From a bacterium (GTDB lineage: Bacteria > Hydrothermota > Tepidihabitantia > B3-TA06), in the NCBI GenBank assembly GCA_012517375.1, contig JAAYVC010000037.1, positions 3,485 through 67,484 on the forward strand: a stretch of 64,000 bases of DNA. The letters run 5' to 3'. The notes beneath the pieces are model-generated. The model did no database searches. It saw nothing but the letters and a program-made list of their open reading frames with translations, and was not told where the DNA came from. Each line of letters begins with the position of its first letter. Position 1 is the stretch's first letter. Of this stretch, positions 17,785-43,975 are shown one piece after another. Made by a program: the position numbers and the translations under genes.

Positions 17785-17883
17785 GGCACCGACCTGCTCA
17801 ACGATGCACCCTTCTCAGGCTGACAGAAAAAAGAAATCGAGTTGAATTCCATCCCTTGCTTACGTCTCATAACGACCCGATGC

Positions 17884-19212: not shown

Positions 19213-19215
19213 CCT

Positions 19216-20678: not shown

Positions 20679-22439
20679 CTACTTATCAATGGGCAGAAGA
20701 AGCCATGAGGTGTAATCCGCGACTCCCAGGTAGGCTTCTGATGCGGCAACGGAGAGGGCTTTTCCGGGTGTATCTATGTAGCCGAGAATCCGTGGCGAAT
20801 GAGGATCACTCACGTCAACCTTCAGCACGCCCTTCTCGCCGCAAGCCAGATACAATGTGGAGCCAGAGAGCGCGAGACCATAAGGTCTTGAACCAAGCAT
20901 GGTGAAAGAAAGCTGTCCGGGCTCTTTCGGATTGCTTATATCGAGCGCCGCCAGAGCGCCTATCGAGTCGGCAACGTACAGCCTGTCCTGTTCAACCAAA
21001 AGCGACCGGGGGCTTACTGTCCCGGGATACAGGGAAAGCGTTACCGGCGTTTCGCCCTCCTTCCTTAAAGCCACTACCCACAGTCCAGAATCCGGATCTG
21101 CCACGTAGACGATGGAATCCTTAACGGCAACGTCAACCGCCTTGATTCCTTCAAGCTTGCCCTTCTCCTTCAGGGGCCCGCAAGGGCATATCCAGAGCAC
21201 CCGCAGCCCTTTTTCGCCCGCCGCATCAAGAATGAGTTCATTGGAGAGCGCGATTCTCGAAAGGTCTCCTGCCTGGTTTATGGTGAAATCCGGTTTCGTA
21301 ACAGGGAACTCCTTCAAGGAAAAGATGCTTAGCAGGGAGCGTCCGGGATCAACCACGTAAAGATTGGTTCCGGAGAGAAGCACGCCGGCGGCGTTATCGG
21401 GCTTCGGGTCAGCGAAACCGACGACGAGCTTTTCGGGCTCGGGCTTTACAACCTTTGCACCGTCCCTGCCCTGCGCGATAGCCCAGAACTCGCCGCCCCT
21501 TGCCGTGTGAACGGAGGGAGCATTCTTGGGAAGTCTCTTCGTGATCTCCATGTTCGCGAAATTCTTTCCCTCAAGGAATACGATTCCTTTGTCCCTGAGC
21601 GCAAGATAAAAGCCTTTCTTTGAGGGCAGGATATCGGCCACATATCCTTCAGCAAAGCCTCGGGAAGCGTCAAGCCTTTTTCCTTTGGCATCGAATACGG
21701 CATATCCTTGATAACCCAGCGCCGCAAACAGTTTCTTCGACTGAAAACAAAGCGCCACTGGTGAAGCGGGCGCATCAAAAACACTTTCCTCTTTTGGCTC
21801 CTTAGGGTCCTTCAGCGAAAAGACCGCTATCTTTGACTCGCTTAATCCCGCATAGAGCCTTGAATCGCCTGCGGCAAGGGTTTTTACTCCCGGAAGAGAA
21901 GTCTCCTTAATGATTTTCGGTGCTTTTTCGCAGGTAATTACATATATGCTCCCGCCTGCGGCGGCGTAAAAATAACCATTCCAGAAGACGATGCTTTCAA
22001 CCTTTGAACCGAGATTGACACTTGCCGGTGCATCGTTCTTTGAAGACAAGTAGATAACGGCGAATAAGCCGGATTCTGTTCCTGCGGCAACGAAACCCTG
22101 GCCGCAAGAAAGCGCCGTTACTTCTGAACCTATCTCATAACTTCCAAGATTAGAGCCTGACGCGTCGAACAAGGCGACTGATTCTGCGTCAGAAAGACAG
22201 AGCTTGCCGTCGTCGCACGAGCGGACTTTTCTCGAATAACCGAGGGTAGGGAAATGTCCGACCGCTTTAAGCTCCGTATCCATCGCTGCAAGACCGTATC
22301 CGGAAGCGGCATACAGCCTGCCGCCCATCTCGACCAGATTCCAATAATCACCCGATATAAAATGACTGGCGGCTCCCTCGGGCAGGATACTTTTGCCTTC
22401 CTGGACCCCGAAAAGGAACGTAAGTATCGAAAACAGCAT
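20679..22439 (-). CDS. Exported beta-propeller repeat protein (LVIVD-like repeats), paralog A
   Basis: 586 aa. N-terminal hydrophobic signal (MLFSILTFLFG). Recurring ~40-aa repeats with hydrophobic-x-V-x-D cores (IVYVADPDSGLWVVAL, LYVADSIGALAALDISNPKEP). Conserved WICPCGPLKEKG motif shared with paralog B. Confidence 0.6.
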   Translation of the reverse strand: MLFSILTFLFGVQEGKSILPEGAASHFISGDYWNLVEMGGRLYAASGYGLAAMDTELKAVGHFPTLGYSRKVRSCDDGKLCLSDAESVALFDASGSNLGSYEIGSEVTALSCGQGFVAAGTESGLFAVIYLSSKNDAPASVNLGSKVESIVFWNGYFYAAAGGSIYVITCEKAPKIIKETSLPGVKTLAAGDSRLYAGLSESKIAVFSLKDPKEPKEESVFDAPASPVALCFQSKKLFAALGYQGYAVFDAKGKRLDASRGFAEGYVADILPSKKGFYLALRDKGIVFLEGKNFANMEITKRLPKNAPSVHTARGGEFWAIAQGRDGAKVVKPEPEKLVVGFADPKPDNAAGVLLSGTNLYVVDPGRSLLSIFSLKEFPVTKPDFTINQAGDLSRIALSNELILDAAGEKGLRVLWICPCGPLKEKGKLEGIKAVDVAVKDSIVYVADPDSGLWVVALRKEGETPVTLSLYPGTVSPRSLLVEQDRLYVADSIGALAALDISNPKEPGQLSFTMLGSRPYGLALSGSTLYLACGEKGVLKVDVSDPHSPRILGYIDTPGKALSVAASEAYLGVADYTSWLLLPIDK

Positions 22440-22454
22440 CTTTCTTCTCCTGAA

Positions 22455-24215
22455 TCAATTGATTGAATACAGTTCAACGGCGTACGGAGTCGAAACCAGC
22501 AAACGCTGTCCGGTTAAGCCTACGCCTCTTGCGCCGTATACGTCTATCCTCGAGATAATCCTGGGTTTTGCCCTGTCGCTGATATCGAGAACGTATACAC
22601 CCTCCTTGCCCGCAGCCACATAAAGCGTATCGCCTTTAATCGCAAGCGCCGAAGGCGTGCCGTCAAGCTCCAATGCAGCCTCTTCCTTGAGTTTTGAAGG
22701 TCTCGATGCGTTAATCAATCCCAGACCGCCCTTCTTGTCAAGACCGACAAGAAGATTCCCTTCAAGGTAAAGCCTGTCGTACGTTCTGGAAAGATCAGCG
22801 CTTGATACGGTTTCGAGTTTTGTGCTGTCCTTCCAGGAAACCGTATAAATCTTATTGCCTGAACCCGAGACAAGTACGAGCCTTGTATCGGGTATAATCT
22901 TTACGTCGAGCGCGCGGCCTTCAATCCCAAGCCTGCCCAGCTCCTTGAATGGGCCGCACGGGCAGCGCCAGTACGAACCGACGCCTCTTGTATCCTCGGC
23001 GGTGAGAACGATTTCTCCTTCGGCATCAAGACCAGAAAGCATGGACTCGTACTGAATGAACGAGCGCCTTTCGGGCCGAGAGGGGTCTTTTATATCGACT
23101 ATCTTGAGCAGGTTGGTTGCGGTAACTGCATATATCTGCGTTCCGAAAAGGTACAAAATCCTCGCGTCATCAATATCCTTATAGGCTCCGAGATAAGCGA
23201 GCGTATCGCCTATGTTTATCGTCCTTATCCCGCCCTGTCCTACCGCGGCTACGGCGATATCTCCCACGCAAAGAAGCTCGTAACCGTCGCCGACACTCTT
23301 GTAGAAGATTCCGTTCAGGAAAGGCGGGCCTATGGAAAGGTCAACCTTTCCGAAGCCCTGGGTGGTCATGACCAGGAGAAGAGAGTCCTTAAGCGCGAGG
23401 CTGGTTGCCAAGCCGTACATATCCATTTCCTGGGAAAGAAGGGGTTTGCGAGGTTCCGCAATGGAAAAAATCAAGAGATCGGCCGTGCCGGCCGCGGCGG
23501 CAAGTCTGTCCTTGTAAGCATCCAGCCTTCTTATCTCTCCTTTCGCTTCAACCTTCGCGACTACCTTCGCGGAGTTTCGTTTGGGTTCAACTACCCACAG
23601 TCCTTCGTCTCCTGCTGCAAGATAGATGATATTGTTCGCGGGAAAAACGTCGAGAACGGCCGGGTCGCCGTCTACAGACAGCTTCACGCACTCAACCTTT
23701 TTTTGAGAGAAGTCGACGGCATAAAGACCTGCGGTGTCGGATGCGAGATAAAGCGTTGCGCCCGAGGGGACAATTCTCGCGGGCGGAGCAGCAAGCATCA
23801 CGGGAGACGGCTCAATCTGCGCTCCCGATGAAAGGTCTATTCCGTAAAGTCTCAGTGAATCATCCGCGAACCACAGCGTATCTCCATCAAGAGACATTGC
23901 TGACACCGCTTCGTCAAAGATTGTTGCCGCATCTGTGACCTGTTTATCGGCTGGGTCTAGCGTTAAAGCCGTTATGCCTCTCGAACCTGCGACATAAAAT
24001 GTGCCGTCGTAGCGGACAATGGTATGATTCCTGCCTGGAAGGAGTCTATCAGAAAGGCGAAGCATGTCCGATAATCTGAAAGCGGTAAAGCCTCTTCCGT
24101 CAGCCATGTAAATAGCCTCGCCATCCATTACGGAGGACGAGAATTCGCCGCCGACAACCAAACCGGTTTCGTATTCGACATTGCCCAAGAGAGGCAGAAG
24201 CAAGAGAACCGACAT
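22455..24215 (-). CDS. Exported beta-propeller repeat protein (LVIVD-like), paralog B
   Basis: 586 aa. Signal peptide (MSVLLLLPLLG). Same repeat organisation and CPCGPFKELG motif as paralog A. 15-bp gap to paralog A. Confidence 0.6.
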   Translation of the reverse strand: MSVLLLLPLLGNVEYETGLVVGGEFSSSVMDGEAIYMADGRGFTAFRLSDMLRLSDRLLPGRNHTIVRYDGTFYVAGSRGITALTLDPADKQVTDAATIFDEAVSAMSLDGDTLWFADDSLRLYGIDLSSGAQIEPSPVMLAAPPARIVPSGATLYLASDTAGLYAVDFSQKKVECVKLSVDGDPAVLDVFPANNIIYLAAGDEGLWVVEPKRNSAKVVAKVEAKGEIRRLDAYKDRLAAAAGTADLLIFSIAEPRKPLLSQEMDMYGLATSLALKDSLLLVMTTQGFGKVDLSIGPPFLNGIFYKSVGDGYELLCVGDIAVAAVGQGGIRTINIGDTLAYLGAYKDIDDARILYLFGTQIYAVTATNLLKIVDIKDPSRPERRSFIQYESMLSGLDAEGEIVLTAEDTRGVGSYWRCPCGPFKELGRLGIEGRALDVKIIPDTRLVLVSGSGNKIYTVSWKDSTKLETVSSADLSRTYDRLYLEGNLLVGLDKKGGLGLINASRPSKLKEEAALELDGTPSALAIKGDTLYVAAGKEGVYVLDISDRAKPRIISRIDVYGARGVGLTGQRLLVSTPYAVELYSIN

Positions 24216-26424: not shown

Positions 26425-27579
26425 TCAACGGAAGGAGAGCATCTTTTCCTTCTTAGCTCTTACCCCTTCTATTCTAATTTCGATGATGTCCATTTTGACA
26501 AGCGAATTAAGATCGCGAGAAATAGTTTTTGCGGTCTTACTTGCATAGGATTCGGCCACTCTGGGGCTGAGTTCGCGAATTTCGGATTTCGGAATGATTT
26601 GTCCCTTATTTGAAATAGCCAAAGCCAATTGTCGTTGCCTTCTAGCCGTTTTCCCCTTCTTATCTCTGAATGCTTCGTGTACATAATCCTTCCATGCGAT
26701 ATCTAAAACCTCTATAGAAACCTTTTGCATCTGTTCGCCCAACCCATCCAGAAACCCTTCTATTGCATACTGGATGAAGGGTATTACGTTTCCGCCGGAT
26801 TTTGAAGCTTGGTCAAGATGTTTGTAATACTCATTTCGGGTTTGATTGTAGTGGTTGCTTAGAAGATGTGCAGCAATTGTCGGTATACCAGCATCTAATA
26901 ATATCTGAAACTCCACCAATCTTGCGGTTCGGCCGTTTCCGTCACCGTAAGGATGTATCCACGCCAGATAAAGATGCGCGAGGACAGCTCTTATCAAAGC
27001 AAATGCGAGTTTGTGCCCCTTGGGCGCCCTGGAACGTTCTTGATTGAGCCAATCACACAGGCGTTTTAACAAGTATTCGCAATCATCTGGGGGCGCAGCA
27101 CGGTAACGGACAAGTTCAACCCCGACAGAATAGTTTCTTATCTTACCAGGAACTATTTGTTCGGGCAATTCTAAATTCTTTAGGACCAGATCATTAAACT
27201 CGTTGATTTTCTTAACAGATAGAAGCCCGCGATTGGTCCCCGTTAATAGTTCAGTTCCAATGATATTGCAGGCTTCAATTATATTGTTTATTTCTTGAGA
27301 AAGATACTCTTTGGAAGGAGGAAGGCTAAGCCTCCCTTCAACAAGTTTTAAGGCATCTTCCTCTGTAAGTGTATTCCCCTCAATAGCAGTTGTAGCTAAA
27401 GCCCCCTTGGCTAGATATAACTCATGCAATCTTTTAGCCGTTGCTGGACGTAGCGGCAAGTTTGCTAGATATTCGCACTTGGCTTGCGCTTCACCAAGCA
27501 TTAACCACAAATCATGCCTAGCTCGGCCGAGGTCGAGTGTAAATGTCAACCACGGATGTGTCTTTTCAAATGTCCGCAC
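26425..27579 (-). CDS. Fic family protein (AMPylation/filamentation domain) with N-terminal inhibitory motif and C-terminal wHTH-like domain
   Basis: 384 aa, GTG start. Fic motif HPYGDGNGRTAR (variant of HPFx[DE]GNGR). Inhibitory-helix motif TAIEGN ([ST]xxxE[GN]). Lower GC and AT-rich flanks (27580-27720). Confidence 0.85.
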   Translation of the reverse strand: MRTFEKTHPWLTFTLDLGRARHDLWLMLGEAQAKCEYLANLPLRPATAKRLHELYLAKGALATTAIEGNTLTEEDALKLVEGRLSLPPSKEYLSQEINNIIEACNIIGTELLTGTNRGLLSVKKINEFNDLVLKNLELPEQIVPGKIRNYSVGVELVRYRAAPPDDCEYLLKRLCDWLNQERSRAPKGHKLAFALIRAVLAHLYLAWIHPYGDGNGRTARLVEFQILLDAGIPTIAAHLLSNHYNQTRNEYYKHLDQASKSGGNVIPFIQYAIEGFLDGLGEQMQKVSIEVLDIAWKDYVHEAFRDKKGKTARRQRQLALAISNKGQIIPKSEIRELSPRVAESYASKTAKTISRDLNSLVKMDIIEIRIEGVRAKKEKMLSFR

Positions 27580-27784: not shown

Positions 27785-28015
27785 AACTTGCGTGTAAAGG
27801 CGGAGGCCAGGGAAGGCCGTGAGAATCGGCCGCGGTGCCGCCACTGTGATCTGGAAACTGCGTTTCCTCCGGGGTTTTCATCGAAAAAACTTCCGGGTAG
27901 ATTGAAACAAGGATGCGTCCTCGTTTCTCAAGTCACTATCTGCAGGAAGCAGATGGGAAGGCTGGAGACGCAACGAGACCAGTAAGCCAGGAGACCTATC
28001 CGCCACTATCCCGCA
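27785..28015 (+). ncRNA. Cobalamin (B12) riboswitch
   Basis: Leader contains the conserved cobalamin-riboswitch core elements GGGAAGGCCGTGAGAATC, GGTGCCGCCACTG and a B12-box-like AAGCCAGGAGACC..GCC. Lies 5' of a TonB-dependent receptor gene. Boundaries approximate. Confidence 0.7.
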
Positions 28016-28078
28016 CCACCCATTCCGGGCCAGGATGGGGGTGTGGTTATCCTAACTCTTACAACTTGGAGGTTTACA

Positions 28079-30067
28079 ATGGTCAAGGCCCTTATCATAT
28101 CATTTCTTTTCGGGCAGGCGCCTCTGGCAGATACATCGACAACTGGAGCCGTAAGGCTGCCGGAGGTCGTCGTGACCGCGACGAGGCTCTCGCTGCCTGC
28201 CAATCTATCGCTATGGCCTGTTGAAGTCATAGAAACAGACGATGAACCCGATCTTGCGGCGGTGCTTGAGGAGAAGAGCCCTGCAACGGACGTACGCTCC
28301 TACGGTCTTACGGGCCAGCCGGCCTACTTCTTTCTCGCAGGAGTTACTTCGACGCGCGTGCTCGTTCTCTCGGACGGCGTTCCTATGAACTCGCGTACAA
28401 ACGGCGTCATCGATCTCGGCATGCTTCCTTTGTCCCCGGGTTCACGGATAGAAATCGTGCGCGGTCCGCTTTCAGCCTTATACGGTTCCACAGCGATAGG
28501 CGGCGTGGTGAACATAATTCCCTCCTACGAAAACGGTATCGCTGCAGGACTCGAACTCGATCAGCATCTGGGTCTTTCCGCCGCTGTTGCGACCTCGAAT
28601 CGGATCAAGAACACCGGTCTCAGGCTTGGTGGTTCCTACCTGACGTCTCCAGGTCTCAGAAGCAACGATTCTACAAAAAGATACAGCGCTCATGCGGGTA
28701 TTGAATTCAACCTCAAAAAAGGCTTCATGCTTGGCGGCGGTTTGGAGATAGTATCACGCGATATGGGCGTGCCCGGTCCTCTGCCCGATGTTTCATCCGG
28801 ACTTCCTAGGTTCGGAGACTCCACCTGCACCTCCCTGTACGACCGGGAACTCGACGATCTCTACTCCTTTAATATCAAAGCAGGCTGGAACCCTGTAGCT
28901 AACTTCTCCTCCTTGCTCAAGCTTTACGGACTTTCTCAGATAACCTTTTTCGACTGGAGATACCTTGACTACTCGATGAACGTCATCAGGGAGATTGACG
29001 ATTATCAAGACGCCAAGCTCGGAGCCGACCTGCTTGTATCGGGAAGACTCAACTGGCTCAATCTTGCAGGAGGGGTTAATCTCGAGCACGAGGCCGTAGG
29101 CGTCCTGACCCTTGCACAGGACAGCGCAACCGGCGATACTGTGTCACGTTCGGCGTGGAACGCCGAAGACCTCCACCTGGGCGCCTGGGCTGAAGGCATT
29201 GCGGAGCTGGGAATGTTTGCGCCGACAATTGCCGTAAGACTCGACTATTCGCCACAGTACAACCTGGCGCTTTCTCCTGAAGCCGGACTTGCTGTAACTA
29301 TCATACCTGAGCGCCTTAAACTCTCCGCCGCTTACGGAAGGGCATTCCGCGCGCCGTCTTTCAACGACCTCTACTGGCCTTATATGGGCGACTCCACTCT
29401 GGAACCCGAGCGAGGCCAGTCCGCATCGCTTTCCGCAGATGCACAACCCCTCGATTTTCTTAAACTTAATGTTTCCGGTTTCTGGAAGGATATAAAGGAT
29501 ATGATCTCGTGGTTGCCCGATTCGCAGGGCATCTGGAAGGCGACGAACGTGGACAGGGTTCAGATCTTTGGAACAGACGCAGATGTTAAACTTAGGATCG
29601 CAGACAGCGTAGTTAACGCATCACTCGGTGCGGCGTACAACTTCGCCGCGGAGACTCGCACCATTGTGGTCTATTCGGACTGGATATCGGGCGAGACCCG
29701 CGATTCCACAGTAACGCGGCAAGCTGCATTTATTCCGCCACTTGTGCTTAAGGCTAACCTGGCGCTTCGACTGTGGAAGGGCGGCAGGATAGCGGCCAAC
29801 GCCGCGTGGACCGCCGGACGCGTCAACTACTACTCCGACTACTCCGCCTCCCCGGTTGTCGGTGTACTCACAAAGCGCATAAATCCGTCGCTTAAACTCA
29901 ACGCATCCATCTCGCAGACGCTTTTCAAGATGCTTACGATAGAGGCTGGCGTGCGCAACATCACCGATGACCGCACGCCAGAGCAGTTCGGTACGGAATA
30001 TACCGACCTCAACTATCCCACGCCTTCACGAAACTTGTACGCCAAGCTGTCCATTCAATATCGATAA
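28079..30067 (+). CDS. btuB: TonB-dependent outer-membrane receptor (BtuB-like cobalamin/corrinoid receptor)
   Basis: Start taken at the ATG at 28079 (SD GGAGG 6 nt upstream; signal MVKALIISFLFGQAPLA). The track GTG at 28043 lies inside the riboswitch. TonB box/plug (VVVTATR; plug domain LSDGVPMNSRTNGVIDLGMLP). Long beta-barrel. Riboswitch context. Confidence 0.8.
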   Translation: MVKALIISFLFGQAPLADTSTTGAVRLPEVVVTATRLSLPANLSLWPVEVIETDDEPDLAAVLEEKSPATDVRSYGLTGQPAYFFLAGVTSTRVLVLSDGVPMNSRTNGVIDLGMLPLSPGSRIEIVRGPLSALYGSTAIGGVVNIIPSYENGIAAGLELDQHLGLSAAVATSNRIKNTGLRLGGSYLTSPGLRSNDSTKRYSAHAGIEFNLKKGFMLGGGLEIVSRDMGVPGPLPDVSSGLPRFGDSTCTSLYDRELDDLYSFNIKAGWNPVANFSSLLKLYGLSQITFFDWRYLDYSMNVIREIDDYQDAKLGADLLVSGRLNWLNLAGGVNLEHEAVGVLTLAQDSATGDTVSRSAWNAEDLHLGAWAEGIAELGMFAPTIAVRLDYSPQYNLALSPEAGLAVTIIPERLKLSAAYGRAFRAPSFNDLYWPYMGDSTLEPERGQSASLSADAQPLDFLKLNVSGFWKDIKDMISWLPDSQGIWKATNVDRVQIFGTDADVKLRIADSVVNASLGAAYNFAAETRTIVVYSDWISGETRDSTVTRQAAFIPPLVLKANLALRLWKGGRIAANAAWTAGRVNYYSDYSASPVVGVLTKRINPSLKLNASISQTLFKMLTIEAGVRNITDDRTPEQFGTEYTDLNYPTPSRNLYAKLSIQYR

Positions 30068-30075
30068 GATTTCCT

Positions 30076-30127
30076 GGGGACCCCGTTAACCCTCGGGGTC
30101 CCCACAAAGCTGCGGAGCAGCTTTGTG
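30076..30127 (+). terminator. Two consecutive perfect hairpins immediately after the btuB-like stop
   Basis: GGGGACCCCG-ttaaccct-CGGGGTCCCC (30076-30103) and CACAAAGCTGC-gga-GCAGCTTTGTG (30103-30127). No strong T-tract. Confidence 0.4.
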
Positions 30128-30129
30128 GG

Positions 30130-30203
30130 GTGACAAAAGCTGGTCAAAAGCTGGTCAAAAGTGGGACAAAAGCTGGTCAGAAGTTGGTCAAAACTTGGAC
30201 AAA
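30130..30203. repeat. 11-bp tandem repeat array, ~7 units, consensus TGGTCAAAAGC
   Basis: tgacaaaagc / tggtcaaaagc / tggtcaaaagt / gggacaaaagc / tggtcagaagt / tggtcaaaact / tggacaaa. Period 11 bp (one helical turn). Non-coding context. Confidence 0.7.
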
Positions 30204-30773
30204 TTTCACCCTCAAAAGAGTCAGGATTAATGGAAGAAGGCCAGATTTCGAGAAGTACGCAAGGAAAATCGAAAATGTCATTGCGAGGTTGTTTCGAGCA
30301 ACCGAAGCAATCGCCCAAATGGAATGCAATCCTTTCGGATGCTCTGCAACCTCAGGATAACATGTTGCATGTTACCCACCATCGCCAGAGGAGAGGGGTC
30401 GGAGAAAGAAAAATGTCTTTGGCTGAACTCGCGCTGTTAGCACTCCCGTTCGGCAGGCAACCAAGGTGACGGGATGAAGCTCCGAAGGGTGAGCGGAGGG
30501 AACCATCTCAAGGCAGTATCTGAAAACATGTGGAATCGACTCATGTGTTTTAAAATAGTGCTAGGAGATTGCCACGACTTCCTTTGGAAGTCTCGCAATG
30601 ACTATGGGGAGAACAAACGTAGGGGCCAGCTTTAACGCCTCTGGCGTTCGCTGCGCGTCAGGTGCTTCGCTCCTCCGCCTGTCATTCTGAGGAGCAACGT
30701 AGTTGCGACGTGAGAATCGCCTTTATGATCTGCCAACACCTTTGGTGTTCGGTGCTCAACGAGTCGACCCGCT

Positions 30774-31529
30774 TCATTCGTCAATAAAGTTCCCTTTAGC
30801 TCCGTATTTTTGGAGCCAAGCTAAGGCGGTTTGAATGAACCGAAGACTGAAATCTTTTTCCAACGCAAGATCAAGGGCGTTTATGTTATGAAAACAGGTG
30901 ACAATTGAGTTGCTTGCACTGAAAGTCATAGAAGTTAGTGTCATGAGCGCCAAATGCAATTTGTCTATATCCAAGAAAGGTTCAGAGTAGATAAGATTAT
31001 TCTTTTGGCCCACAAGCATTCTTAGAATTCCTTTCCATGTGGGGTGGGAGCCTAAAGTGGAAAAATGCCCGTATAAGATTCTTTCATCATCGGCGTTTCC
31101 TTTCGTAACCACATTTTCATACTCTTTCAAAAACTTTCGATTATCGCCTGCTGAAAATTCTTTTCCGTTTTTCCATCTTTGAATTGCTGACGTATCTAAG
31201 GCAAATCTTCTAATAAGCAAAGAACTTTCCTGGATGTCCCTTGTAATCATTAACGAAGCCTGGTAAAAGCCTGATATAATCAACCCAAAAGCGACCGAGA
31301 CATCATTATAAGTTCTTACGATTAATCCCAAAACAACGAGCTCGTCGTCCGTTTTGTGTTTCCGATCAATTCCAATCTTCCAAATCCATTCCACGGATTC
31401 ACTCAGAATCTTCAAGTGGTCTTGGCACTCATCATCCGCGCCAGTAGCCATAAGGATTTGCTCGCGCATCTTTTTCTCGGCTTCCAGCATGTTCGCAAGG
31501 TTTTCCGGCAAGGGCAGCACAATACTCAT
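30774..31529 (-). CDS. Hypothetical protein, paralog 1 of a tandem pair (unknown family)
   Basis: 251 aa. ~30% identity to the 31790-32566 product over full length (VVLGLIVRTYNDVSVAFGLIISGFYQ vs ITLLGLGTSLYNDCATAWLLMMQGFYQ; HPTWKGILRML vs HPTYRGIALML). Low GC. Confidence 0.55.
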   Translation of the reverse strand: MSIVLPLPENLANMLEAEKKMREQILMATGADDECQDHLKILSESVEWIWKIGIDRKHKTDDELVVLGLIVRTYNDVSVAFGLIISGFYQASLMITRDIQESSLLIRRFALDTSAIQRWKNGKEFSAGDNRKFLKEYENVVTKGNADDERILYGHFSTLGSHPTWKGILRMLVGQKNNLIYSEPFLDIDKLHLALMTLTSMTFSASNSIVTCFHNINALDLALEKDFSLRFIQTALAWLQKYGAKGNFIDE

Positions 31530-31532
31530 TTC

Positions 31533-31591
31533 TTCCTCCTCTTTTACGGTTCAGTTATAGTATAATTTAGGTTGCGGATGTCAATCCCCCC
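31533..31591 (-). promoter_or_regulatory. Promoter/5'UTR cassette (copy 1): TTGACA-16-TACTAT plus AGGAGG SD, identical to the cassette at 32572-32630
   Basis: 59 bp identical between the two copies. On the minus strand reads GGGGGGATTGACATCCGCAACCTAAATTATACTATAACTGAACCGTAAAAGAGGAGGAA then ATG. Confidence 0.5.
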
Positions 31592-31659
31592 TCCCCCCTC
31601 TCGCAGGAAGGACCTTCATCCAGTCAGCGTGAGATGGCTCCCTTCGTTCGCCCTGCGGA

Positions 31660-31750
31660 CTCACGTCCTTCCGGTCATACGACCGTCAGTCCTCAGAATG
31701 ACTAAGCAAGCCCCCTCCCTCTCCCTTTCTCCCTCCCCCGGAGGGGGAGG
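31660..31750. repeat. Dispersed ~90-bp intergenic repeat (copy A) with internal CTCCCTCCCCCGG/AGGGGGAGG hairpin
   Basis: Near-identical to 33997-34088 (ctcacgtccttccggtcatacgaccgtcagtcctcagaatgactaagcaagccccctccctctccctttctccctccccc..). A related, rearranged fragment lies at 30612-30718. Confidence 0.7.
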
Positions 31751-31789
31751 ATAGCCAACGTAGGGGCCAACCTTCAGGTCGGCCCGCTT

Positions 31790-32566
31790 TTACAAATCGT
31801 GCCCTTCATTTCTTAAAGCTCCAAATGATGGAAAATCCCTGTAGAGTTTCAACCATTTTGAAAGCCAAGAATTGAATTTTGAATAAGCGATGCCAAAGTC
31901 TTCATTGGCGTTTTTTAGGTTTTCTTCCCCGTATGCCTTAACCAGTTGTTTTGTCGCATACGATGAAATCCGGGCCAGCCAAGTTAAACCATTTTGCAGA
32001 GGTATTTGCTCGACATAAGGACCTAGATGTAAGTTTCCGTGAGGATCACCTAACATCAACGCGATTCCGCGATAAGTGGGGTGTACGTTCATATCACACA
32101 GAAGTGCATGGGTGGCTTCGATAGGATGTTCCTTTATTCTTAAGCGGTCTTTGACTTTTCTTAACGCATCGGAAAGTAGCCCCCTCCTAGTTGAATAGAT
32201 TGCTTTTTTCCAAGCTTGGATCGCAGAACGTTCCATTGAAAAAAACTCAAAAAGAATTGAGCATTCAAGCATATGCCGCTGAGGCATGAAAGACATTTGA
32301 TAAAATCCTTGCATCATTAGAAGCCATGCGGTTGCACAATCGTTGTACAAGCTAGTTCCTAGGCCTAAGAGAGTAATATCGTCTTCGTTGTTATGTTTGT
32401 GGATTGTTGATATAGCTTTTATTAAGAGCATTGAATTTTCGATTGAACTGAAATGATCACCAAATTCTTTAATGTGAGAGTATATCATTTCACGGGAACT
32501 TTGCACTAATGGTACTCCGTTGGTCAATACCCTTTCTAGGATATCGGGAATAGCTGGTTTAAGCAT
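31790..32566 (-). CDS. Hypothetical protein, paralog 2 of the tandem pair
   Basis: 258 aa. Paralogous to 30774-31529. Preceded by the identical promoter cassette. Confidence 0.55.
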   Translation of the reverse strand: MLKPAIPDILERVLTNGVPLVQSSREMIYSHIKEFGDHFSSIENSMLLIKAISTIHKHNNEDDITLLGLGTSLYNDCATAWLLMMQGFYQMSFMPQRHMLECSILFEFFSMERSAIQAWKKAIYSTRRGLLSDALRKVKDRLRIKEHPIEATHALLCDMNVHPTYRGIALMLGDPHGNLHLGPYVEQIPLQNGLTWLARISSYATKQLVKAYGEENLKNANEDFGIAYSKFNSWLSKWLKLYRDFPSFGALRNEGHDL

Positions 32567-32571
32567 GAATT

Positions 32572-32630
32572 TTCCTCCTCTTTTACGGTTCAGTTATAGT
32601 ATAATTTAGGTTGCGGATGTCAATCCCCCC
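32572..32630 (-). promoter_or_regulatory. Promoter/5'UTR cassette (copy 2), identical to 31533-31591
   Basis: 59/59 identity with copy 1. Same -35/-10/SD arrangement. Confidence 0.5.
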
Positions 32631-32805
32631 TTATCAAGGAGGACGCCTGAAGGGCGAGGGGTATTACGGGTCCCCCTTATACTGCGCTCCCTCGATTCCT
32701 CCCACCAGGAGAGGGAGAATTCAATTTCCTCTCAGGAGATAGTCATTGCAGTGACGCATAGATGGGGTCCTCACAGAAATACTCGATATCTTTACGGGGA
32801 TGAAA

Positions 32806-33810
32806 CTACCACCAGACGGAGAAATACGAGCAGCGGTCGCAGGGCGGGGAAAGGCCCACCTTGCGGGCAGCCAGGTGCCTTTCTCTATAGAACTTCATTT
32901 TTTTGCCGTGCCAGATCGCGTAAAGGCTTTCGCTGCCTTGCACGCCCACGCTGCCCTCAGCATCGTAATCAAGACAACACACGGGAACGGTGCCGTCCCA
33001 GTAGACGCTGAGCTGCGTAAAAGGGTAGATACACGGCGGCCACGCGCCCTCTCGTCCGCGATGAGGGGTGTAAACCACGGGGTCAAGACTTACGCTTTTA
33101 AGCCAGTCCTGCGGCTGGCGAACCAGGATTGAATCGGCAACCCGAGCCCACTCTCTTCGGAGAGCGGGTATCTGGGATGAGTTGGATCCCAGGAGCACCA
33201 TCTCGATTTGAATCCTTGGCCTTCCGCCTCGTCTTGCAAACGCCAATGTTCGCACATTCTCCACGACCGAATCAAAGTCAAGTCCCGTGCGGATACGGTT
33301 GTAAACCTCGGTGCTCGCGCCGTCCAACGAGATGTTTACCTCGTCCAGGCCGGCTTCGATAAGCCCCAGCGCCCGCGAACGGTCGAGGAGAGAAGCGTTC
33401 GTAACGATAGAGGTTTTTACCCCCTTGGAATGAGCGTAGGAAACCTTCTGCTCCAGCCCTTTGTCGAGGAGCGACTCGCCGAACCCCGAAAGATAGAGCT
33501 TTTGGACCCCGTGCTCGGCGCATTCATCCGCGATATCGGCGAAGCGGGACCATGACATTATTCCTTTTGTGCGACTCATTGTGGAGGAGGGGCACATGAT
33601 GCATCTGGAATTGCAGTATGCGGATGATTCAACGGCCACCGTTTCGGGAAATTCCTCGTGCGCGGAGATGATCCGTTTTATTCGGCGGCGGTAAAAGTAA
33701 TTGTAGAAGGAATTTCCGTTAAGCGATTTCGTCTTCAGTAATTTGTAAAAGAGCTCACGAGAAACCGCAGACATCTTGACGCGTTCCCTCAACTGGTCGA
33801 TAAAATCCAT
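32806..33810 (-). CDS. Radical SAM protein with C-terminal SPASM/twitch-like Cys-rich domain
   Basis: 334 aa. CxxxCxxC (AYCNSRCIMCPS). C-terminal cysteines (WPPCIYP..VPVCCLDYD..PPCDRCSYF). Own TTGACA-17-GATAAT promoter upstream. Confidence 0.75.
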   Translation of the reverse strand: MDFIDQLRERVKMSAVSRELFYKLLKTKSLNGNSFYNYFYRRRIKRIISAHEEFPETVAVESSAYCNSRCIMCPSSTMSRTKGIMSWSRFADIADECAEHGVQKLYLSGFGESLLDKGLEQKVSYAHSKGVKTSIVTNASLLDRSRALGLIEAGLDEVNISLDGASTEVYNRIRTGLDFDSVVENVRTLAFARRGGRPRIQIEMVLLGSNSSQIPALRREWARVADSILVRQPQDWLKSVSLDPVVYTPHRGREGAWPPCIYPFTQLSVYWDGTVPVCCLDYDAEGSVGVQGSESLYAIWHGKKMKFYRERHLAARKVGLSPPCDRCSYFSVWW

Positions 33811-33996
33811 ATCTGGTTCCGCCTTTTTTCAAGCACTTGTTTCTATTATCCATGCGGAGCGGTGGATTGTCAATACCTTTACCTGAAAAATTCGCAGGCC
33901 GACTTTATCCGGGGAACCCCTCCCCCCTTATAGAAAGGGGGGGCCGAAAAAAGTCCCACTTATTATTAAGGGGGATTTCCCATCCTTCATGAGATT

Positions 33997-34088
33997 CTCA
34001 CGTCCTTCCGGTCATACGACCGTCAGTCCTCAGAATGACTAAGCAAGCCCCCTCCCTCTCCCTTTCTCCCTCCCCCGGGGGGAGGGGA
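33997..34088. repeat. Dispersed ~90-bp intergenic repeat (copy B)
   Basis: Matches 31660-31750 almost base-for-base, including the CCCTCCC..GGGGGAGGGG hairpin. Confidence 0.7.
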
Positions 34089-34129
34089 GAAGAATTATTG
34101 AACTAGTTATTGCTGTGACGAAAAGCGGG

Positions 34130-34160
34130 CCCCGTAAAAATACTCCGTGTTTTTACGGGG
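34130..34160 (-). terminator. Hairpin CCCCGTAAAAA-tactccgtg-TTTTTACGGGG overlapping the fusA stop codon
   Basis: 11-bp stem. Followed on the minus strand by CCCGCTTTTCG. Confidence 0.45.
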
Positions 34161-36219
34161 TTAGTATCAGGTACTGGAAGAGTTTTCTGCGCTCCTCCTC
34201 GGGCAGGAGGCTGTAGTGCGAGAAGTGCATGGCGAAGGAGGCGCGGCCCTGGCTTACGGAGCGCAGCGCGGTCGCGTAGCCGAAGCTCTGCGAAAGGGGC
34301 AGAAACGCTTTAACAAGCTTCTGCTCCTTAATGTTCTCTAAAAGCTCAATCTTGCCGCGGCGCGAGCCCAGGTCGGAGATGACGTCGCCCAGATACTCCT
34401 CGGGCGTTATTATCTCGAGGTCCATTATCGGCTCGAGAAGCGCGGGCGACGCCTGCTCGTACGCCTCCCGGAACGCCTGCGATGTCGCGGCCTTGAATGC
34501 GATGTCGGACGCTTCCTCCTCCCTGAACTCGACCTCGGTGACTGTAGCGCGCACGTTCGCGACAGGAAAGCCGAGAAGCTGTCCTGCAGAGAAGGATTCT
34601 GAAAGCGTCGTCTCAATCGCCTGCAGGAACTCGCGCGGAATCTCATCCTTCAGCTTGACCCTCGCGTCCTTTCCACCCTCGTGAGGCTCCACCCTCACCG
34701 TGACTGCGGCATAGTGGCTCTTTGTACCAATGACCTTCGCGAATGTAGCCTTGCGCTCCACCTTCTCCGTTACGGTCTCCCTGTACGATACCTGCGGCTT
34801 GCCCACGCGCACGGGGACCCGGAACTCCTTCTGAATCCGGTCAACGATAATCTCCAGATGAAGCTCGCCCATTCCCGAAACGAGCGTCTGTCCGGTCTCG
34901 GGGTCTATTCGGACGCCGAATGTAGGGTCCTCGAGCTGCATTATCTCTAGCGCGCGGCCGAGCTTTGCCTCGTCCGCTTTCGTGTGCGGTTCAACTGCCT
35001 GGTGGATGACGGGCTCCGGAAAGCGCATTGCCTCGTACACTATTGGGTGCTTCTGGTCAGAAAGCGTTGAGCCTGTGGTTATGTGCCGCAGACCGGACAA
35101 AAGACCTATCTCGCCTGCCTCGAGCTTCGCAACCTCCTCGAAGTGATTGGAGTGGGGGAGAAAGAGCTTTTGCACCCTCGAGCGCTTGCCTCCCGGAAAA
35201 CCGAGTACGGTCTCGCCCTGCTTTACGGTTCCGGAGTAAAGACGAGTGAATGCAAGAGGACCCATATGCTGGTCGTATGCGAGCTTGAACACGAGCGCGG
35301 ATAATGGCTCGTCGGGCAGGGGTTTGAATTTAATCTTTCGCTCCTCGCGCTCAGGATCAGAACCCTCGAGCGCTGCAACGTCCAGCGGCGATGGCAGGTA
35401 ATGGATGACCGCATCCAGGAGCGGCTGAACGCCCTTGTTCTTGAGCGCCGAGCCGCACAAGACGGGCACAATCTTTCCTTCAAGCGTGAGCGAGCGCAGC
35501 GCTGCTCTGAGTGGTCCCGGCTCGCTCTTGCGACCGGCCATGTAATCTTCTAGAATCTCATCCTCCACCTCTGATGCGACGTTCACGAGCCTCTCGCGCC
35601 AGTGCTTTGCAACGGCGACGTGCTCGGCCGGCATCTCTTCCACGATGAACTCCGAACCCTGGGCCTCGTCCCTCCACCTGATAGCCTTCCACTCCACCAG
35701 GTCTATGACGCCCTTGAAGCCCTGCTCCGAGCCGAGCGGTATCTGCACCGGGACGGGGAGCTGGCTGAAGCGAGCCTCCATCATGTCAATGACCCGCTCG
35801 AAGTCGGCGCCCGTGCGGTCCATCTTGTTCACGAATGCGATCCTCGGGATATGGTAGCGGTCCGCCTGATGCCACACGGTTTCAGACTGAGGCTCAACGC
35901 CTCCTACAGCGCAGAAGACGACTACTGCTCCGTCCAGCACCTTGAGCGAGCGCTCAACCTCTATCGTGAAGTCCACATGACCCGGCGTATCGATTACATT
36001 TATCCTTATGTCCTTCCAGTAAACAACTGTCGCAGCTGAAGTTATAGTAATGCCCCTCTCGCGTTCCTGCTGCATCCAGTCCATTGTAGCGGCGCCGTCG
36101 TCGACCTCTCCCATGCGGTGTATCCTCTTAGCGTAAAAAAGAATCCTCTCCGTAGTGGTGGTTTTTCCCGCATCTATATGTGCGGCTATACCTATGTTGC
36201 GAAGCTTCGACAGATCCAT
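34153..36219 (-). CDS. fusA: Elongation factor G (EF-G paralog, not in an str-operon context)
   Basis: 688 aa. G-domain [30 protein letters not shown]. Full five-domain EF-G length. Start codon 7 bp after the stop of the upstream REC-DUF4388 gene, with no SD. Confidence 0.9.
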
Positions 36220-43228: not shown

Positions 43229-43680
43229 TGGACAAAGCCGCCTTAGACCTTGGTTCGGGAACGCTCACTCTCGAAGAGCTGAGAATGATGCTTCGCTCCC
43301 TGCCCCTCAATATCGACTACGTCGATGAGAATGACGCCTTTCGCTACTATTCCAACGGCGACAGGCTATTCAAGCTATCGACAGACGAGCTCGGCAAGAA
43401 CCTTGAGGAGTGTCATTCAGAAAAATCAATGCCAATGGTCAAGGAGATTACAGGCGCGTTCAGGAAAGGAAGAAACGAACCCTACAGGTTCGTTAACTTA
43501 AAAGAAGGCCGCTGGCTGGAAGTGCGGTATATCCCTTTACGTGATGAAAAGGGAGACTATAAAGGAATCCTTGAACTCTCTCAGGATATCACCGAGGCCT
43601 GCAACATCAAGACCCCGTATGTCCCGCCGGAGTTCGGGGAGCTCCTTGAGCAGTCAAGGAGGAACAATGAACACCCGTAA
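43216..43680 (+). CDS. PAS-like domain protein (paralog of the C-terminus of the upstream DUF438 protein)
   Basis: 154 aa. LTLEELRMMLRSLPLNIDYVDENDAFRYYS.. parallels LTLEQIDLMLKNLPVDISFVDEHDELRYYS.. of the preceding gene. 13-bp overlap. Confidence 0.5.
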   Translation: MEGIVDKAALDLGSGTLTLEELRMMLRSLPLNIDYVDENDAFRYYSNGDRLFKLSTDELGKNLEECHSEKSMPMVKEITGAFRKGRNEPYRFVNLKEGRWLEVRYIPLRDEKGDYKGILELSQDITEACNIKTPYVPPEFGELLEQSRRNNEHP

Positions 43681-43975
43681 CACCCGTAACACCCGTAACA
43701 CCCGTAACACCCGCAGCGCCAGCAGCGCCAGCAGCCCCAGCAGCCCCAGCAGCGCCGGTAGCGCCCGTAGCGCCCGCAGGGTTACCATTCCAGCTATAAG
43801 CTGCACCTACTGTTCCAGGCTCATCAAAAGAGAGCTTGAAACCATAGAGGGGGTCAAGGTAGTTGTCGTTAACCTGCCTTTGAGAGAGGTCGTTGTTGAA
43901 TGGCAGCCTCCCGCTACGTGGGAGGCAATTGTGCGAATGCTCAAGGAAATAGAGTATCCGCCGAAGGAGAACTGA
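43667..43975 (+). CDS. HMA-domain (CopZ-like) metallochaperone with N-terminal (NTR)5-(SAS/SPS/SAR)n low-complexity extension; CTYC metal motif
   Basis: Start at the ATG at 43667 (AAGGAGG upstream). The track ORF 43541-43975 extends 5' into the previous gene. HMA fold pattern IPAISCTYCSRLIKRELETIEGVKVVVVNL..VVEWQPPATWEAIVRMLKEIEYPP. Confidence 0.7.
   Translation: MNTRNTRNTRNTRNTRSASSASSPSSPSSAGSARSARRVTIPAISCTYCSRLIKRELETIEGVKVVVVNLPLREVVVEWQPPATWEAIVRMLKEIEYPPKEN
43670..43786 (+). repeat. In-frame 9-bp tandem repeats: (AACACCCGT)4-AACACCCGC followed by AGCGCCAGC/AGCCCCAGC/AGCGCCCGT variants (13 units)
   Basis: Read directly from the sequence. Encodes (NTR)5 SASSAS SPSSPS SAG SARSAR. The first unit overlaps the stop codon of the upstream gene. 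Confidence 0.85.

What the first reader, a model, noticed from the sequence alone, without database searches (positions are those of the whole stretch)
30774..32630. Two diverged paralogous genes of unknown family, each preceded by an identical 59-bp promoter+SD cassette
Genes 30774-31529 and 31790-32566 (251 and 258 aa, only ~30% identical, low GC) each start immediately after the same 59-bp sequence (31533-31591 = 32572-32630, 59/59). On the coding strand this contains TTGACA, a -10-like TACTAT at 16 bp and a perfect AGGAGG SD. Proteins this diverged with 100% identical upstream regions imply either recent promoter conversion or transplantation, or strong selection on a shared regulatory element. 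The pair lies in a repeat-rich, AT-richer island next to an rSAM/SPASM enzyme, a context reminiscent of defence or immunity gene pairs or polymorphic accessory modules.
Basis: seen in the sequence. Interest (0 to 1): 0.6.

Follow-up and report, generated by a model that had tools for sequence, protein, structure and literature searches.

The report
Swappable promoter-plus-gene modules at a hotspot
Two distantly related copies of an uncharacterised gene each carry their own identical promoter, and comparing strains shows they are self-contained modules that get swapped, added and lost at one fixed chromosomal spot in an uncultured digester bacterium; this behaviour is typical of conflict genes, but their function is still unknown.

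Summary
A 60-nt exact repeat (31533-31592 = 32572-32631) lies directly upstream of two minus-strand genes, A (251 aa) and B (258 aa), which are 28% identical. It holds TTGACA-16-TACTAT and AGGAGG. Independent assemblies show the same arrangement, so it is not an artefact.

The repeat is this gene family's own promoter and leader, recognisable upstream of A-type and B-type genes in at least five related species. Constraint alone does not explain 60/60 identity, because only 21 of about 70 columns are invariant across species. Recent conversion or duplication within this genome is needed.

Each gene is a self-contained module: promoter, ORF, then a GC-rich hairpin right after the stop codon. The modules sit between fusA and btuB. 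Three haplotypes exist in one species:
- rSAM–B–A (the window)
- rSAM–B2, whose protein is 60% identical to B
- A′ alone, with no promoter cassette

Breakpoints fall in the promoter, in the 3′ hairpin and inside the ORF. The genes have GC3 of 0.38-0.49 against 0.60-0.79 for neighbours in every species examined.

The proteins are distant DUF5677 relatives (674 cluster representatives), all-helical, with invariant R97, E101, W119 and H162 and no solved structural relative. A defence-type or conflict role is inferred, not shown.

The parts
32572..32631 (-). Promoter and leader cassette of gene B: -35 TTGACA at 32623-32618, -10 TACTAT at 32601-32596, AGGAGG at 32579-32574
   Evidence: Exact 60-nt repeat. 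Promoter scan scores 10/12. The same architecture is conserved upstream of family genes in other species.
31790..32566 (-). Gene B, 258 aa (NCBI NLI97921.1, hypothetical GX441_04595). B-type member of a DUF5677-related family.
   Evidence: GC 0.40 and GC3 0.375. In strain L017 it is replaced by an allele that is 60% identical.
31762..31788 (-). GC-rich hairpin directly after the B stop codon (GGGCCGACC-TGAA-GGTTGGCCC), with no U-tract
   Evidence: Fold gives -19 kcal/mol, z -2.0. The same element follows family genes in L017, L018 and L014 (z -5.8 in L018). The motif CGTAGGGGCCRRC occurs only twice in the 64 kb, after B and after A.
31660..31751 (-). 92-nt repeat, copy 1 (REP-like, CCCTCC/GGGAGG hairpin plus GTCATTCTGAGGAC), between module B and the cassette of A
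   Evidence: 97% identical to 33997-34088.
31533..31592 (-). Promoter and leader cassette of gene A: -35 at 31584-31579, -10 at 31562-31557, AGGAGG at 31540-31535
   Evidence: Absent from strains L001 and L002, where the match to the window resumes at 31541, i.e. the Shine-Dalgarno only.
30774..31529 (-). Gene A, 251 aa (NLI97920.1, hypothetical GX441_04590). A-type member of the family.
   Evidence: Weak DUF5677 hit (E 0.008). AlphaFold model has pLDDT 93.6 and is all-helical. It is mosaic against strain L001: 21 of 23 substitutions lie in codons 3-71.
30618..30773 (-). 3' element of module A. The proximal half-hairpin AAGCGGGTCGAC (30773-30762) and the distal half (30663-30618, CTGACGCG...GCTGGCCCCTACG) are split by a roughly 100-nt REP-like insertion.
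   Evidence: Comparison of 3' flanks. In L017 the two halves are contiguous after P0009, and identity to the window resumes at 30663.
32806..33810 (-). Radical SAM/SPASM gene (334 aa), optional cargo of the variable segment. It has its own TTGACA-17-GATAAT promoter at 33873-33845.
   Evidence: Pfam Radical_SAM plus SPASM. No NCBIfam equivalog reaches its cutoff. Promoter. Absent in L001, L002, L012 and L018. GC3 0.66, i.e. native.
33997..34088 (-). 92-nt repeat, copy 2, just downstream of EF-G
31542..34148 (.). Strain-variable segment. Strains L001 and L002 replace it with an unrelated 131 bp, although their flanks are 99.7% identical.
   Evidence: blastn of L001 and L002 against the window; sequence.
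30664..31785 (.). Segment absent from strain L017: the spacer, cassette, gene A and the proximal 3' element
   Evidence: MAFFT identity profile of L017 against the window.
30132..30208 (.). 11-nt tandem array (CTTTTGACCAG on the minus strand, about 6-7 units), the conserved right-hand neighbour of the locus
   Evidence: Unique in the window. Similar arrays follow the family gene in L008 and L014/L015, where the further context differs.

Best explanation
Genes A and B are two self-contained expression modules. Each has a sigma-70-type promoter, a short leader with AGGAGG, an ORF, and a GC-rich hairpin right after the stop codon. They sit in a recombination hotspot between fusA (EF-G) and an 11-mer array plus btuB, in an unclassified anaerobic-digester bacterium.

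The 60-nt 'cassette' is the family's own conserved promoter and leader. Its perfect identity in this genome comes from recent intragenomic gene conversion, or from duplication when a module was added. Selection alone does not explain it.

The conserved 5' promoter and 3' hairpin, together with REP-like intergenic repeats, supply the homology through which whole alleles are replaced and modules are gained or lost between strains and related species. This keeps a pool of deeply diverged, low-GC alleles at a fixed position.

Shown here:
- the anatomy of the modules
- the haplotypes and the breakpoints
- the compositional anomaly
- the links to the wider family

Inferred:
- that the promoter is active
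- that exchange happens by homologous recombination
- function: the proteins are cytoplasmic all-helical DUF5677-related proteins with a conserved polar site (R97, E101, W119, H162). They most likely act singly as conflict proteins, of the phage-defence or abortive-infection kind, whose variable periphery is under frequency-dependent selection.
For: Anatomy:
- The hairpin after the stop codon is shared by A, B, L017, L018 and L014, and its motif occurs only after A and B in 64 kb.
- The promoter architecture TTGACA-N16-TAnnAT-AAC...AAAGAGGAGG precedes A-type and B-type genes in L003, L008, L012, L014, L017 and L018.

Polymorphism within one species:
- L001 and L002: flanks are 99.7% identical, rSAM and B are absent, and A' (96% aa) has no cassette.
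- L017: 239/240 upstream bases are identical up to the -10 box, the ORF is only about 65% identical at nucleotide level (60% at protein level), module A is absent, and identity resumes at 30663. BtuB is 100% identical.
- A versus A': the substitutions cluster in codons 3-71.
- Allele P0009 is closer (72%) to P0011, from a species whose EF-G is 74% and BtuB 51% identical, than to the B of its own species (60%).

Composition: GC3 is 0.38-0.49 for family genes against 0.60-0.79 for neighbours in all species of the lineage.

Family:
- 674 cluster representatives match the profile, all about 250 aa. R97, E101, W119 and H162 are invariant.
- DUF5677 is the only recurrent Pfam hit, in 22 of 131 members, and P0150 is above the gathering score.
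- The model is confident, pLDDT 93.6.
- The conserved core is H3-H5 and H8; the variable parts are H6-H7, H9-H10 and the C-tail.

Hints of a conflict role:
- A relative in temperate Sinorhizobium phage phi3LM21 sits next to a DUF2806/Abi_alpha gene.
- A relative on a Mesorhizobium plasmid is in an operon with a HEPN_RiboL-PSP protein.
- DUF5677 is reported as enriched near serine recombinases of defence islands (PMC12632615).
Against: - There is no hit to any PADLOC, NCBIfam or PHROGs model.
- The one DUF5677 ORF tested in PMC12632615 was not among those that gave phage defence.
- The family is essentially absent from phage collections: 1 INPHARED record and none in IMG/VR in three scans.
- No recombinase, toxin or other defence gene lies between 13.5 and 46.8 kb of the window.
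- dN/dS between A and A' is 0.28, so that comparison shows no sign of positive selection.
- The hairpins lack a U-tract, and only some fold better than shuffles.
- Promoter activity is untested.
- The genome- and metagenome-wide cassette scans could only detect exact pattern matches and found nothing further.
Confidence: 0.6

Rival explanations
1. These are ordinary lineage-specific paralogs. A tandem duplication of a non-essential gene of unknown, non-conflict function (for example a stress or regulatory protein) was followed by divergence. The identical promoter is just a recent local gene conversion between two neighbouring repeats, and the strain differences are neutral indels caused by REP-like repeats.
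For: - The position after fusA is conserved in several species.
- No mobile-element or defence genes lie nearby.
- dN/dS is 0.28.
- REP-like repeats are abundant in the intergenic DNA.
- Relatives have Xre-type HTH fusions and lie in or next to umuDC and imuAB-dnaE2 loci, which could point to a regulatory or DNA-damage role.
Against: - The A/B split predates speciation, since both types have orthologues in other species. So this is not a recent tandem duplication.
- Alleles are 60% identical within one species whose flanks are at least 98% identical.
- The GC3 deficit of about 0.25-0.3 persists in all species.
- Whole-module presence and absence varies between strains.
Confidence: 0.22
2. These are immunity or self-protection proteins linked to a product of the adjacent radical SAM/SPASM enzyme (a RiPP or bacteriocin), or orphan immunity genes against polymorphic toxins. 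They would be arrayed with conserved intergenic motifs as in the rAID islands of Bacteroidales.
For: - The rSAM/SPASM gene lies directly upstream of B in the window, L017, L021 and L022.
- The genes form a co-oriented array of roughly 250-codon genes with conserved intergenic motifs, resembling the description of rAID in PMC12247911.
- Allelic diversity is extreme.
Against: - The rSAM gene is absent from L001, L002, L012 and L018, which still carry the family gene. In L003 it is replaced by an unrelated 359-aa ORF.
- No precursor-peptide ORF stands out in 32567-34152.
- The rSAM reaches no maturase equivalog cutoff.
- No tyrosine recombinase, T6SS gene or toxin gene lies within 13.5-46.8 kb.
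- Invariant R/E/W/H residues across 131 distant members fit an enzyme or ligand site better than a toxin-specific binding surface.
Confidence: 0.1
3. The 60-nt element is a mobile promoter, either a MITE-like or integron-like element or the target of a site-specific recombinase, that has inserted upstream of two unrelated targets.
For: - The identity has sharp edges at both ends.
- It is absent upstream of A' in L001.
Against: - There are only two copies in 64 kb, both upstream of the same gene family.
- Exact-pattern scans of 185,579 species genomes and the JGI metagenome collection each returned a single stretch with no family gene beside it, which I read as a chance match.
- Reading the sequence shows no terminal inverted repeats or target duplications.
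- Homologous promoters precede the family genes in other species, so the element belongs to the gene rather than to a transposon.
- No integrase was found.
Confidence: 0.04

Closest known systems
Phage 'morons' (autonomous promoter-gene-terminator units with deviant base composition, as defined for lambdoid prophages; recalled from my own knowledge)
   Same: Each gene has its own sigma-70-type promoter upstream and a stem-loop directly downstream. Its GC content is far from that of its neighbours. It is present or absent between otherwise near-identical genomes.
   Different: The setting is chromosomal, between fusA and btuB, with no prophage genes nearby. The hairpins lack a U-tract. The same family occupies the same site across species, and it is the alleles that are exchanged rather than unrelated cargo.
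Recombinase-associated acquired interbacterial defence (rAID) arrays of Bacteroidales (described in PMC12247911)
   Same: Co-oriented genes of about 100-300 codons are separated by conserved intergenic sequence motifs. Gene content is highly variable between strains.
   Different: No tyrosine recombinase was found. There are only one or two genes, all from one family. The lineage is not Bacteroidales, no T6SS context is present, and the proteins have an invariant polar site.
Strain-variable defence hotspots at fixed chromosomal positions flanked by core genes (general concept, recalled from my own knowledge)
   Same: Core flanks are conserved (fusA at 99.7%, btuB at 98-100%) while the content between them is hypervariable and low in GC. 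Alleles are shared across species boundaries.
   Different: No known defence gene is present, and the hotspot holds a single uncharacterised family.
Pfam DUF5677 (PF18928)
   Same: It is the only recurrent Pfam match: 7 of 13 close members and 22 of 131 broad members at E <= 0.01. It covers helices H3-H7. One profile hit, P0150, passes the Pfam gathering score.
   Different: A scores 16.7 bits against a cutoff of 27.1, and B does not match at all. The family described here has two extra N-terminal helices and full-length conservation over about 250 aa.
Integron gene cassettes
   Same: They are short single-gene units bounded by a conserved structured 3' element, arranged in tandem, and vary between strains.
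   Different: Integron cassettes lack their own promoter and depend on an IntI integrase and attC sites. Here every unit has its own promoter, and no integrase was found.

Membership tests
Pfam DUF5677 (PF18928) | Whole-protein score at or above the Pfam gathering threshold (27.1 bits) | tested here: not met
   A scores 16.7 bits (E 0.008) and B has no hit. Seven of 13 close relatives hit only weakly.
Pfam DUF5677 (PF18928) | Homology by transitive profile linkage to bona fide members | tested here: met
   P0150 matches the family profile at E 3e-24 over positions 6-241 and scores 29.9 bits on DUF5677, above the cutoff. Twenty-two of 131 members hit DUF5677, and no other family recurs.
HEPN superfamily | Conserved Rx4-6H motif at the start of the last core helix | tested here: not met
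   The invariant residues are R97, E101, W119 and H162. The R and the H are 65 residues apart, and no Rx4-6H column is conserved.
HEPN superfamily | Significant structural or profile similarity to HEPN domains | tested here: inconclusive
rAID orphan-immunity array | Adjacent tyrosine recombinase | tested here: not met
   Pfam hits, run here or precomputed, for ORFs between 13.5 and 46.8 kb show none. Two ORFs, 14856-16223 and 16426-17784, were not scanned; they are paralogues of the radical-SAM genes by repeat analysis.
rAID orphan-immunity array | [quoted passage not shown] | tested here: met
   Two co-oriented genes, each preceded by the 60-nt cassette and followed by the hairpin motif.
rAID orphan-immunity array | Genes protect against T6SS or polymorphic toxins | not testable with these tools
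   This needs co-expression or competition assays.
Integron cassette array | IntI integrase with attI, and attC sites | tested here: not met
   No integrase was found. The units carry their own promoters.
Phage moron | Own promoter upstream and terminator downstream | tested here: inconclusive
   The promoter consensus scores 10/12. The 3' hairpins reach -19 to -28 kcal/mol but have no U-tract, with z-scores from -0.8 to -5.8. Transcription was not tested.
Phage moron | Base composition unlike the neighbours | tested here: met
   GC3 is 0.45 for A and 0.375 for B, against 0.60-0.72 for neighbours. The same holds in the sister species.
Phage moron | Located in a prophage | tested here: not met
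   The neighbours are fusA, two-component regulators, btuB with a cobalamin riboswitch, and radical-SAM genes.
Known anti-phage defence systems (PADLOC 2.0) | Match to a defence-system protein model | tested here: not met
   A, B, P0159 and the phage and plasmid homologues gave 0 hits. HTH-fused relatives hit only through their HTH.
Toxin-antitoxin pair | Two different, co-transcribed and usually overlapping genes that always co-occur | tested here: not met
   A and B are homologous to each other and each has its own promoter. Single-copy loci exist in L001, L017, L012 and L018.
RiPP cluster with rSAM/SPASM maturase | Precursor peptide gene, with the maturase co-occurring with the family gene | tested here: not met
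   No candidate short ORF stands out in 32567-34152. The rSAM gene is absent from most family loci. No maturase equivalog reaches its cutoff.

The most novel reading that the evidence does not exclude
The DUF5677-related proteins are a new family of single-protein defence (abortive-infection-type) effectors. They would be carried in 'plug-and-play' modules whose conserved promoter and 3' hairpin act as built-in homology arms. This would let an uncultured lineage shuffle specificity alleles across strains and species at a fixed chromosomal dock, with no dedicated recombinase. The conserved 11-mer array next to the dock could be part of the unit.
Probability: 0.2. Interest if true: 0.7.

Novelty: new variant of a known kind. 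Interest (0 to 1): 0.48.

Why it matters
If the model holds, this locus is a clean natural example of allele shuffling without a recombinase. Each gene brings its own expression signals, and those signals double as the homology that lets alleles be swapped between strains and related species.

It also marks a rare, unnamed protein family: 674 clusters, no solved structural relative, and an invariant R/E/W/H site. That family behaves in populations like a conflict gene, so it gives a concrete candidate for defence-gene discovery in uncultured anaerobic-digester bacteria.

If the model is wrong, this is simply a lineage-specific pair of paralogs with a converted promoter, which is of local interest only.

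Tried and rejected
Searches and comparisons that gave nothing:
- PADLOC, NCBIfam and PHROGs gave no usable hit for A or B.
- A profile search of PDB sequences found only noise, E >= 1.2.
- Foldseek against PDB with both models, and against BFVD, found nothing at E <= 0.001.
- The degenerate cassette pattern returned one stretch in genome contigs and one in metagenome contigs. Neither has a family gene beside it, so I read both as chance matches. The window's own genome is apparently not in the species-representative collection.
- Three scans of IMG/VR found no relatives, and two alignments were too diverse to scan.
- tblastn against plasmids and phages found only three plasmid records (one near full length, two partial) and one phage record.
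- hhalign of the family profile against the neighbouring HEPN_RiboL-PSP and DUF2806/Abi_alpha proteins showed no relationship.
- The third word-index homologue search added only six unnamed metagenomic proteins.

Explanations rejected:
- Assembly artefact: independent assemblies agree.
- Simple deletion between the two cassettes or the two 92-nt repeats as the origin of the L001 haplotype: L001 lacks both repeats and has an unrelated 131 bp.
- Riboswitch or structured leader: the leader is only about 25 nt, and Rfam finds nothing in the region.
- Plus-strand ORFs starting inside the cassette ('MRMSIPP...'): they are low-complexity read-through of REP-like DNA.
Full report
**1. The observation**

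On the minus strand, gene B (31790-32566, 258 aa) and gene A (30774-31529, 251 aa) are each preceded by the same sequence. The repeat is 60 nt long and exact, 31533-31592 = 32572-32631. No third copy exists in the 64 kb even with three mismatches allowed, and none of 100 shuffles gives a match.

The proteins are homologous but distant: 28% identity, E 1e-20. The consensus scan calls TTGACA-16-TACTAT at 32623-32596 and 31584-31557. With the rSAM promoter (TTGACA-17-GATAAT, 33873-33845), these are the three best sigma-70-like sites in 30000-34300. AGGAGG follows 8-10 nt before each ATG.

The arrangement is not an artefact:
- An independently assembled ENA contig (L021) is 99.99% identical over 8.8 kb with both copies.
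- Logan contigs from other samples span rSAM-cassette-B (L022) and B-cassette-A (L033) at 100% identity.
- Many short contigs break inside the cassette, as a true repeat would cause.

**2. What the cassette is**

Homologues of A and B in related uncultured bacteria carry the same architecture upstream: TTGACA, 16 nt, TAnnAT, then ATAAC(C)TGAA..AAAGAGGAGG and the start codon. This is seen in L003, L008, L012, L014, L017 and L018. The cassette is therefore the gene family's own promoter and leader, not an unrelated mobile element.

Across those eight sequences only 21 of about 70 columns are invariant. A strain of the same species (L017) has an identical -35 to -10 region but a leader differing at about seven positions. 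Constraint therefore cannot explain 60/60 identity between genes whose coding sequences are saturated with change. A recent conversion or duplication within this genome is required.

Pattern scans of the species-genome and JGI metagenome collections found no further copies. Each returned a single stretch with no family gene beside it, which I read as a chance match.

**3. The module**

Right after each stop codon comes a GC-rich stem-loop, GGGCCGACC-loop-GGTYGGCCCC-TACG.
- Behind B it is a compact 9-bp hairpin (-19 kcal/mol).
- In L018 the equivalent hairpin folds far better than shuffles (z -5.8).
- In L017 and L014 the loop carries an inner hairpin.
- Behind A the two halves are split by about 100 nt of REP-like DNA.
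- The motif occurs only twice in the window, after A and after B.
- None of these hairpins has a U-tract, so they are terminator-like rather than canonical terminators.

Each gene is thus a unit of promoter, leader, ORF and hairpin. A 92-nt REP-like repeat (31660-31751 = 33997-34088, 97%) precedes each unit.

**4. Population evidence**

The flanking genes are true EF-G (TIGR00484, 863 bits against a cutoff of 659) and a TonB-dependent receptor behind a cobalamin riboswitch, i.e. btuB-like.

There are three haplotypes in one species:
- (i) The window, L021, L022 and L033: fusA - rSAM/SPASM - [B] - [A] - btuB.
- (ii) L001 and L002, from two samples. The flanks are 99.7% identical, but 31542-34148 is replaced by an unrelated 131 bp. 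A' (96% aa) follows EF-G by 148 nt and keeps only the Shine-Dalgarno, with no TTGACA cassette. Of the 23 substitutions between A and A', 21 lie in codons 3-71, which marks a recombination tract ending inside the ORF. dN/dS is 0.28.
- (iii) L017: 239 of 240 bases upstream are identical down to the -10 box. The ORF is then about 65% identical at nucleotide level (P0009, 60% aa to B), and module A is missing. Identity resumes exactly in the distal half of the 3' hairpin at 30663 and continues at 98.3% through btuB, whose protein is 100% identical.

A JGI contig of 2,268 nt probably adds a fourth allele. P0003, 78% identical to A, appears to sit next to an EF-G fragment of the same 90% cluster. 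This is inferred from matching contig lengths only.

P0009 is closer (72%) to P0011, from a species whose EF-G is 74% and BtuB 51% identical, than to the B allele of its own species. Allele lineages therefore cross species boundaries.

In sister species the same site holds different content:
- one B-type gene in L012 and L018
- two A-type genes in L003 plus L008, where contigs break at the repeats
- an unrelated 359-aa ORF in L003 where rSAM sits here

**5. Composition**

A and B have GC 0.41 and 0.40, and GC3 0.45 and 0.375. EF-G, rSAM, btuB and the response regulator have GC3 0.60-0.72. The same gap holds in every species of the lineage: family genes at 0.40-0.49 against 0.62-0.79 for neighbours. 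More distant family members in other phyla do not show it.

A persistent, non-ameliorating deficit at a conserved position fits a shared pool of alleles that keep being exchanged.

**6. The proteins**

Word-index searches found only 6 + 6 relatives, all unnamed apart from the NCBI 'hypothetical protein [bacterium]' records. A full HMMER profile search found 674 cluster representatives (377 at E <= 1e-10). Nearly all are about 250 aa and match over their full length.

- R97, E101, W119 and H162 are invariant in 131 aligned members. R72, N75, G87, Q90, R131, Y153 and G183 are above 90%.
- The only recurrent Pfam family is DUF5677. A scores 16.7 bits against a cutoff of 27.1, and B gets nothing. 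Twenty-two of 131 members hit at E <= 0.01, and P0150 is above the cutoff. This is a divergent DUF5677-related clade that the Pfam model does not capture.
- With the deep alignment, AlphaFold gives a confident ten-helix bundle (pLDDT 93.6, pTM 0.90).
- Neither the model nor the profile finds a solved relative. The highest Foldseek probability, for 2q00_A, is not significant.
- No signal peptide or transmembrane-like segment is evident: the maximum 19-residue hydropathy is 1.7 in a buried core helix.
- Conservation is highest in H3-H5 and H8, which carry the invariant residues. It is lowest in H6-H7, H9-H10 and the C-tail.

**7. Functional hints from relatives**

- Some members carry an N-terminal Xre-type HTH (P0034, P0052) or DUF2934 (P0150).
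- One sits between umuD and umuC with overlapping stop and start codons (L026).
- One lies on a Mesorhizobium plasmid in a three-gene operon led by a HEPN_RiboL-PSP protein, just after imuA-imuB-dnaE2.
- One lies at the end of the temperate Sinorhizobium phage phi3LM21, next to a DUF2806/Abi_alpha gene.
- A preprint lists DUF5677 among domains enriched next to serine recombinases of defence islands. The DUF5677 ORF it tested was not among those that protected (PMC12632615).

These hints lean towards a conflict role but are few.

Against that role:
- There is no PADLOC hit.
- The family is almost absent from phage and viral collections.
- No recombinase, toxin or defence gene lies within 13.5-46.8 kb of the window.

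**8. Mechanism proposed**

Shown:
- Each gene is an autonomous unit with promoter-like and terminator-like flanks.
- The units occupy a fixed dock.
- Alleles and whole units differ between near-identical genomes, with breakpoints in the promoter, in the 3' hairpin and within the ORF.

Inferred:
- Exchange is by homologous recombination, using the conserved flanks and REP-like repeats as arms.
- The 60/60 identity is the footprint of the latest such event.
- Expression is constitutive from a strong promoter.
- The proteins act singly, through the invariant polar site, in some conflict, with the variable periphery setting specificity.

I put 0.6 on the module-and-hotspot model as a whole. Within it, I put roughly 0.35-0.4 on a defence-type function specifically.

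**9. Comparison with known systems**

- The architecture works like a phage moron: own promoter, stem-loop and deviant GC. It is not in a prophage.
- It resembles rAID arrays in being co-oriented short genes with conserved intergenic motifs (PMC12247911). It lacks the recombinase, the T6SS context and the gene diversity of those arrays.
- It differs from integron cassettes, which have no promoter of their own and depend on an integrase.
- It fails the HEPN motif test.
- It is best filed as a new variant of the 'strain-variable accessory or defence hotspot' kind, carrying an uncharacterised DUF5677-related family.

**10. Verdict**

Interest is moderate. The population-level picture is unusually clean and the family is unexplored, but the function remains inferred.

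Noticed in passing
window 30132-30208; L008 1109-1232; L015 1385-1495; L014 5260-5318: An 11-nt tandem array (CTTTTGACCAG on the minus strand, phased T-tracts, about 6-11 units) is unique in the window. It is the right-hand neighbour of the family gene in three species whose further context differs (btuB, CorA, dprA). It could be a protein-binding or curved-DNA element that belongs to the locus.
   Followed up: partly
window 27785-28017 (+) and 28043-30067 (+): A cobalamin riboswitch (Rfam RF00174, 52 bits) lies directly upstream of the TonB-dependent receptor, so the receptor is btuB-like.
   Followed up: partly
window 14856-20631 (-): There are four tandem paralogous genes of about 450 aa (61-73% nucleotide identity in repeat blocks). 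Pfam scans of two of them gave radical SAM hits. Two LVIVD-repeat proteins follow at 20679-24215.
   Followed up: partly
window 26425-27579 (-): A Fic/DOC-domain gene (384 aa, with the motif HPYGDGNGRTAR) has low GC (0.44, GC3 0.41). It is another compositionally foreign gene near the locus.
   Followed up: no
window 31660-31751 and 33997-34088; also 30560-30600 and 30681-30694: REP-like intergenic elements (CCCTCC...GGGAGG palindromes, GTCATTCTGAGGAC / GTCATTGCGAGAC hairpins) fill the intergenic DNA of this lineage. They coincide with contig breaks in other assemblies (L003, L008).
   Followed up: partly
L003 4527-5606 (-): In a sister species an unrelated 359-aa ORF, with no Pfam or NCBIfam hit, occupies the position that the rSAM/SPASM gene has in the window. 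The slot between fusA and the first module therefore accepts different cargo.
   Followed up: partly
L026 1051-3574; L032 96-7783: Distant family members lie inside a umuD-X-umuC operon, and just downstream of imuA-imuB-dnaE2 on a Mesorhizobium plasmid. This is a recurring association with SOS-mutagenesis genes, which together with the Xre-HTH fusions may point to a DNA-damage link.
   Followed up: no
window 43665-43779 and 2758-2797: Perfect 9-nt tandem repeats are present: AACACCCGT x4.9, GCAGCGCCA x7.4 and GCGCGGGTA x2.6.
   Followed up: no
L012 6441-6509: In this species the -35 region of the family promoter overlaps the EF-G stop codon (CTGACCTAACA). The gene therefore abuts fusA with a weakened -35 hexamer.
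   Followed up: no
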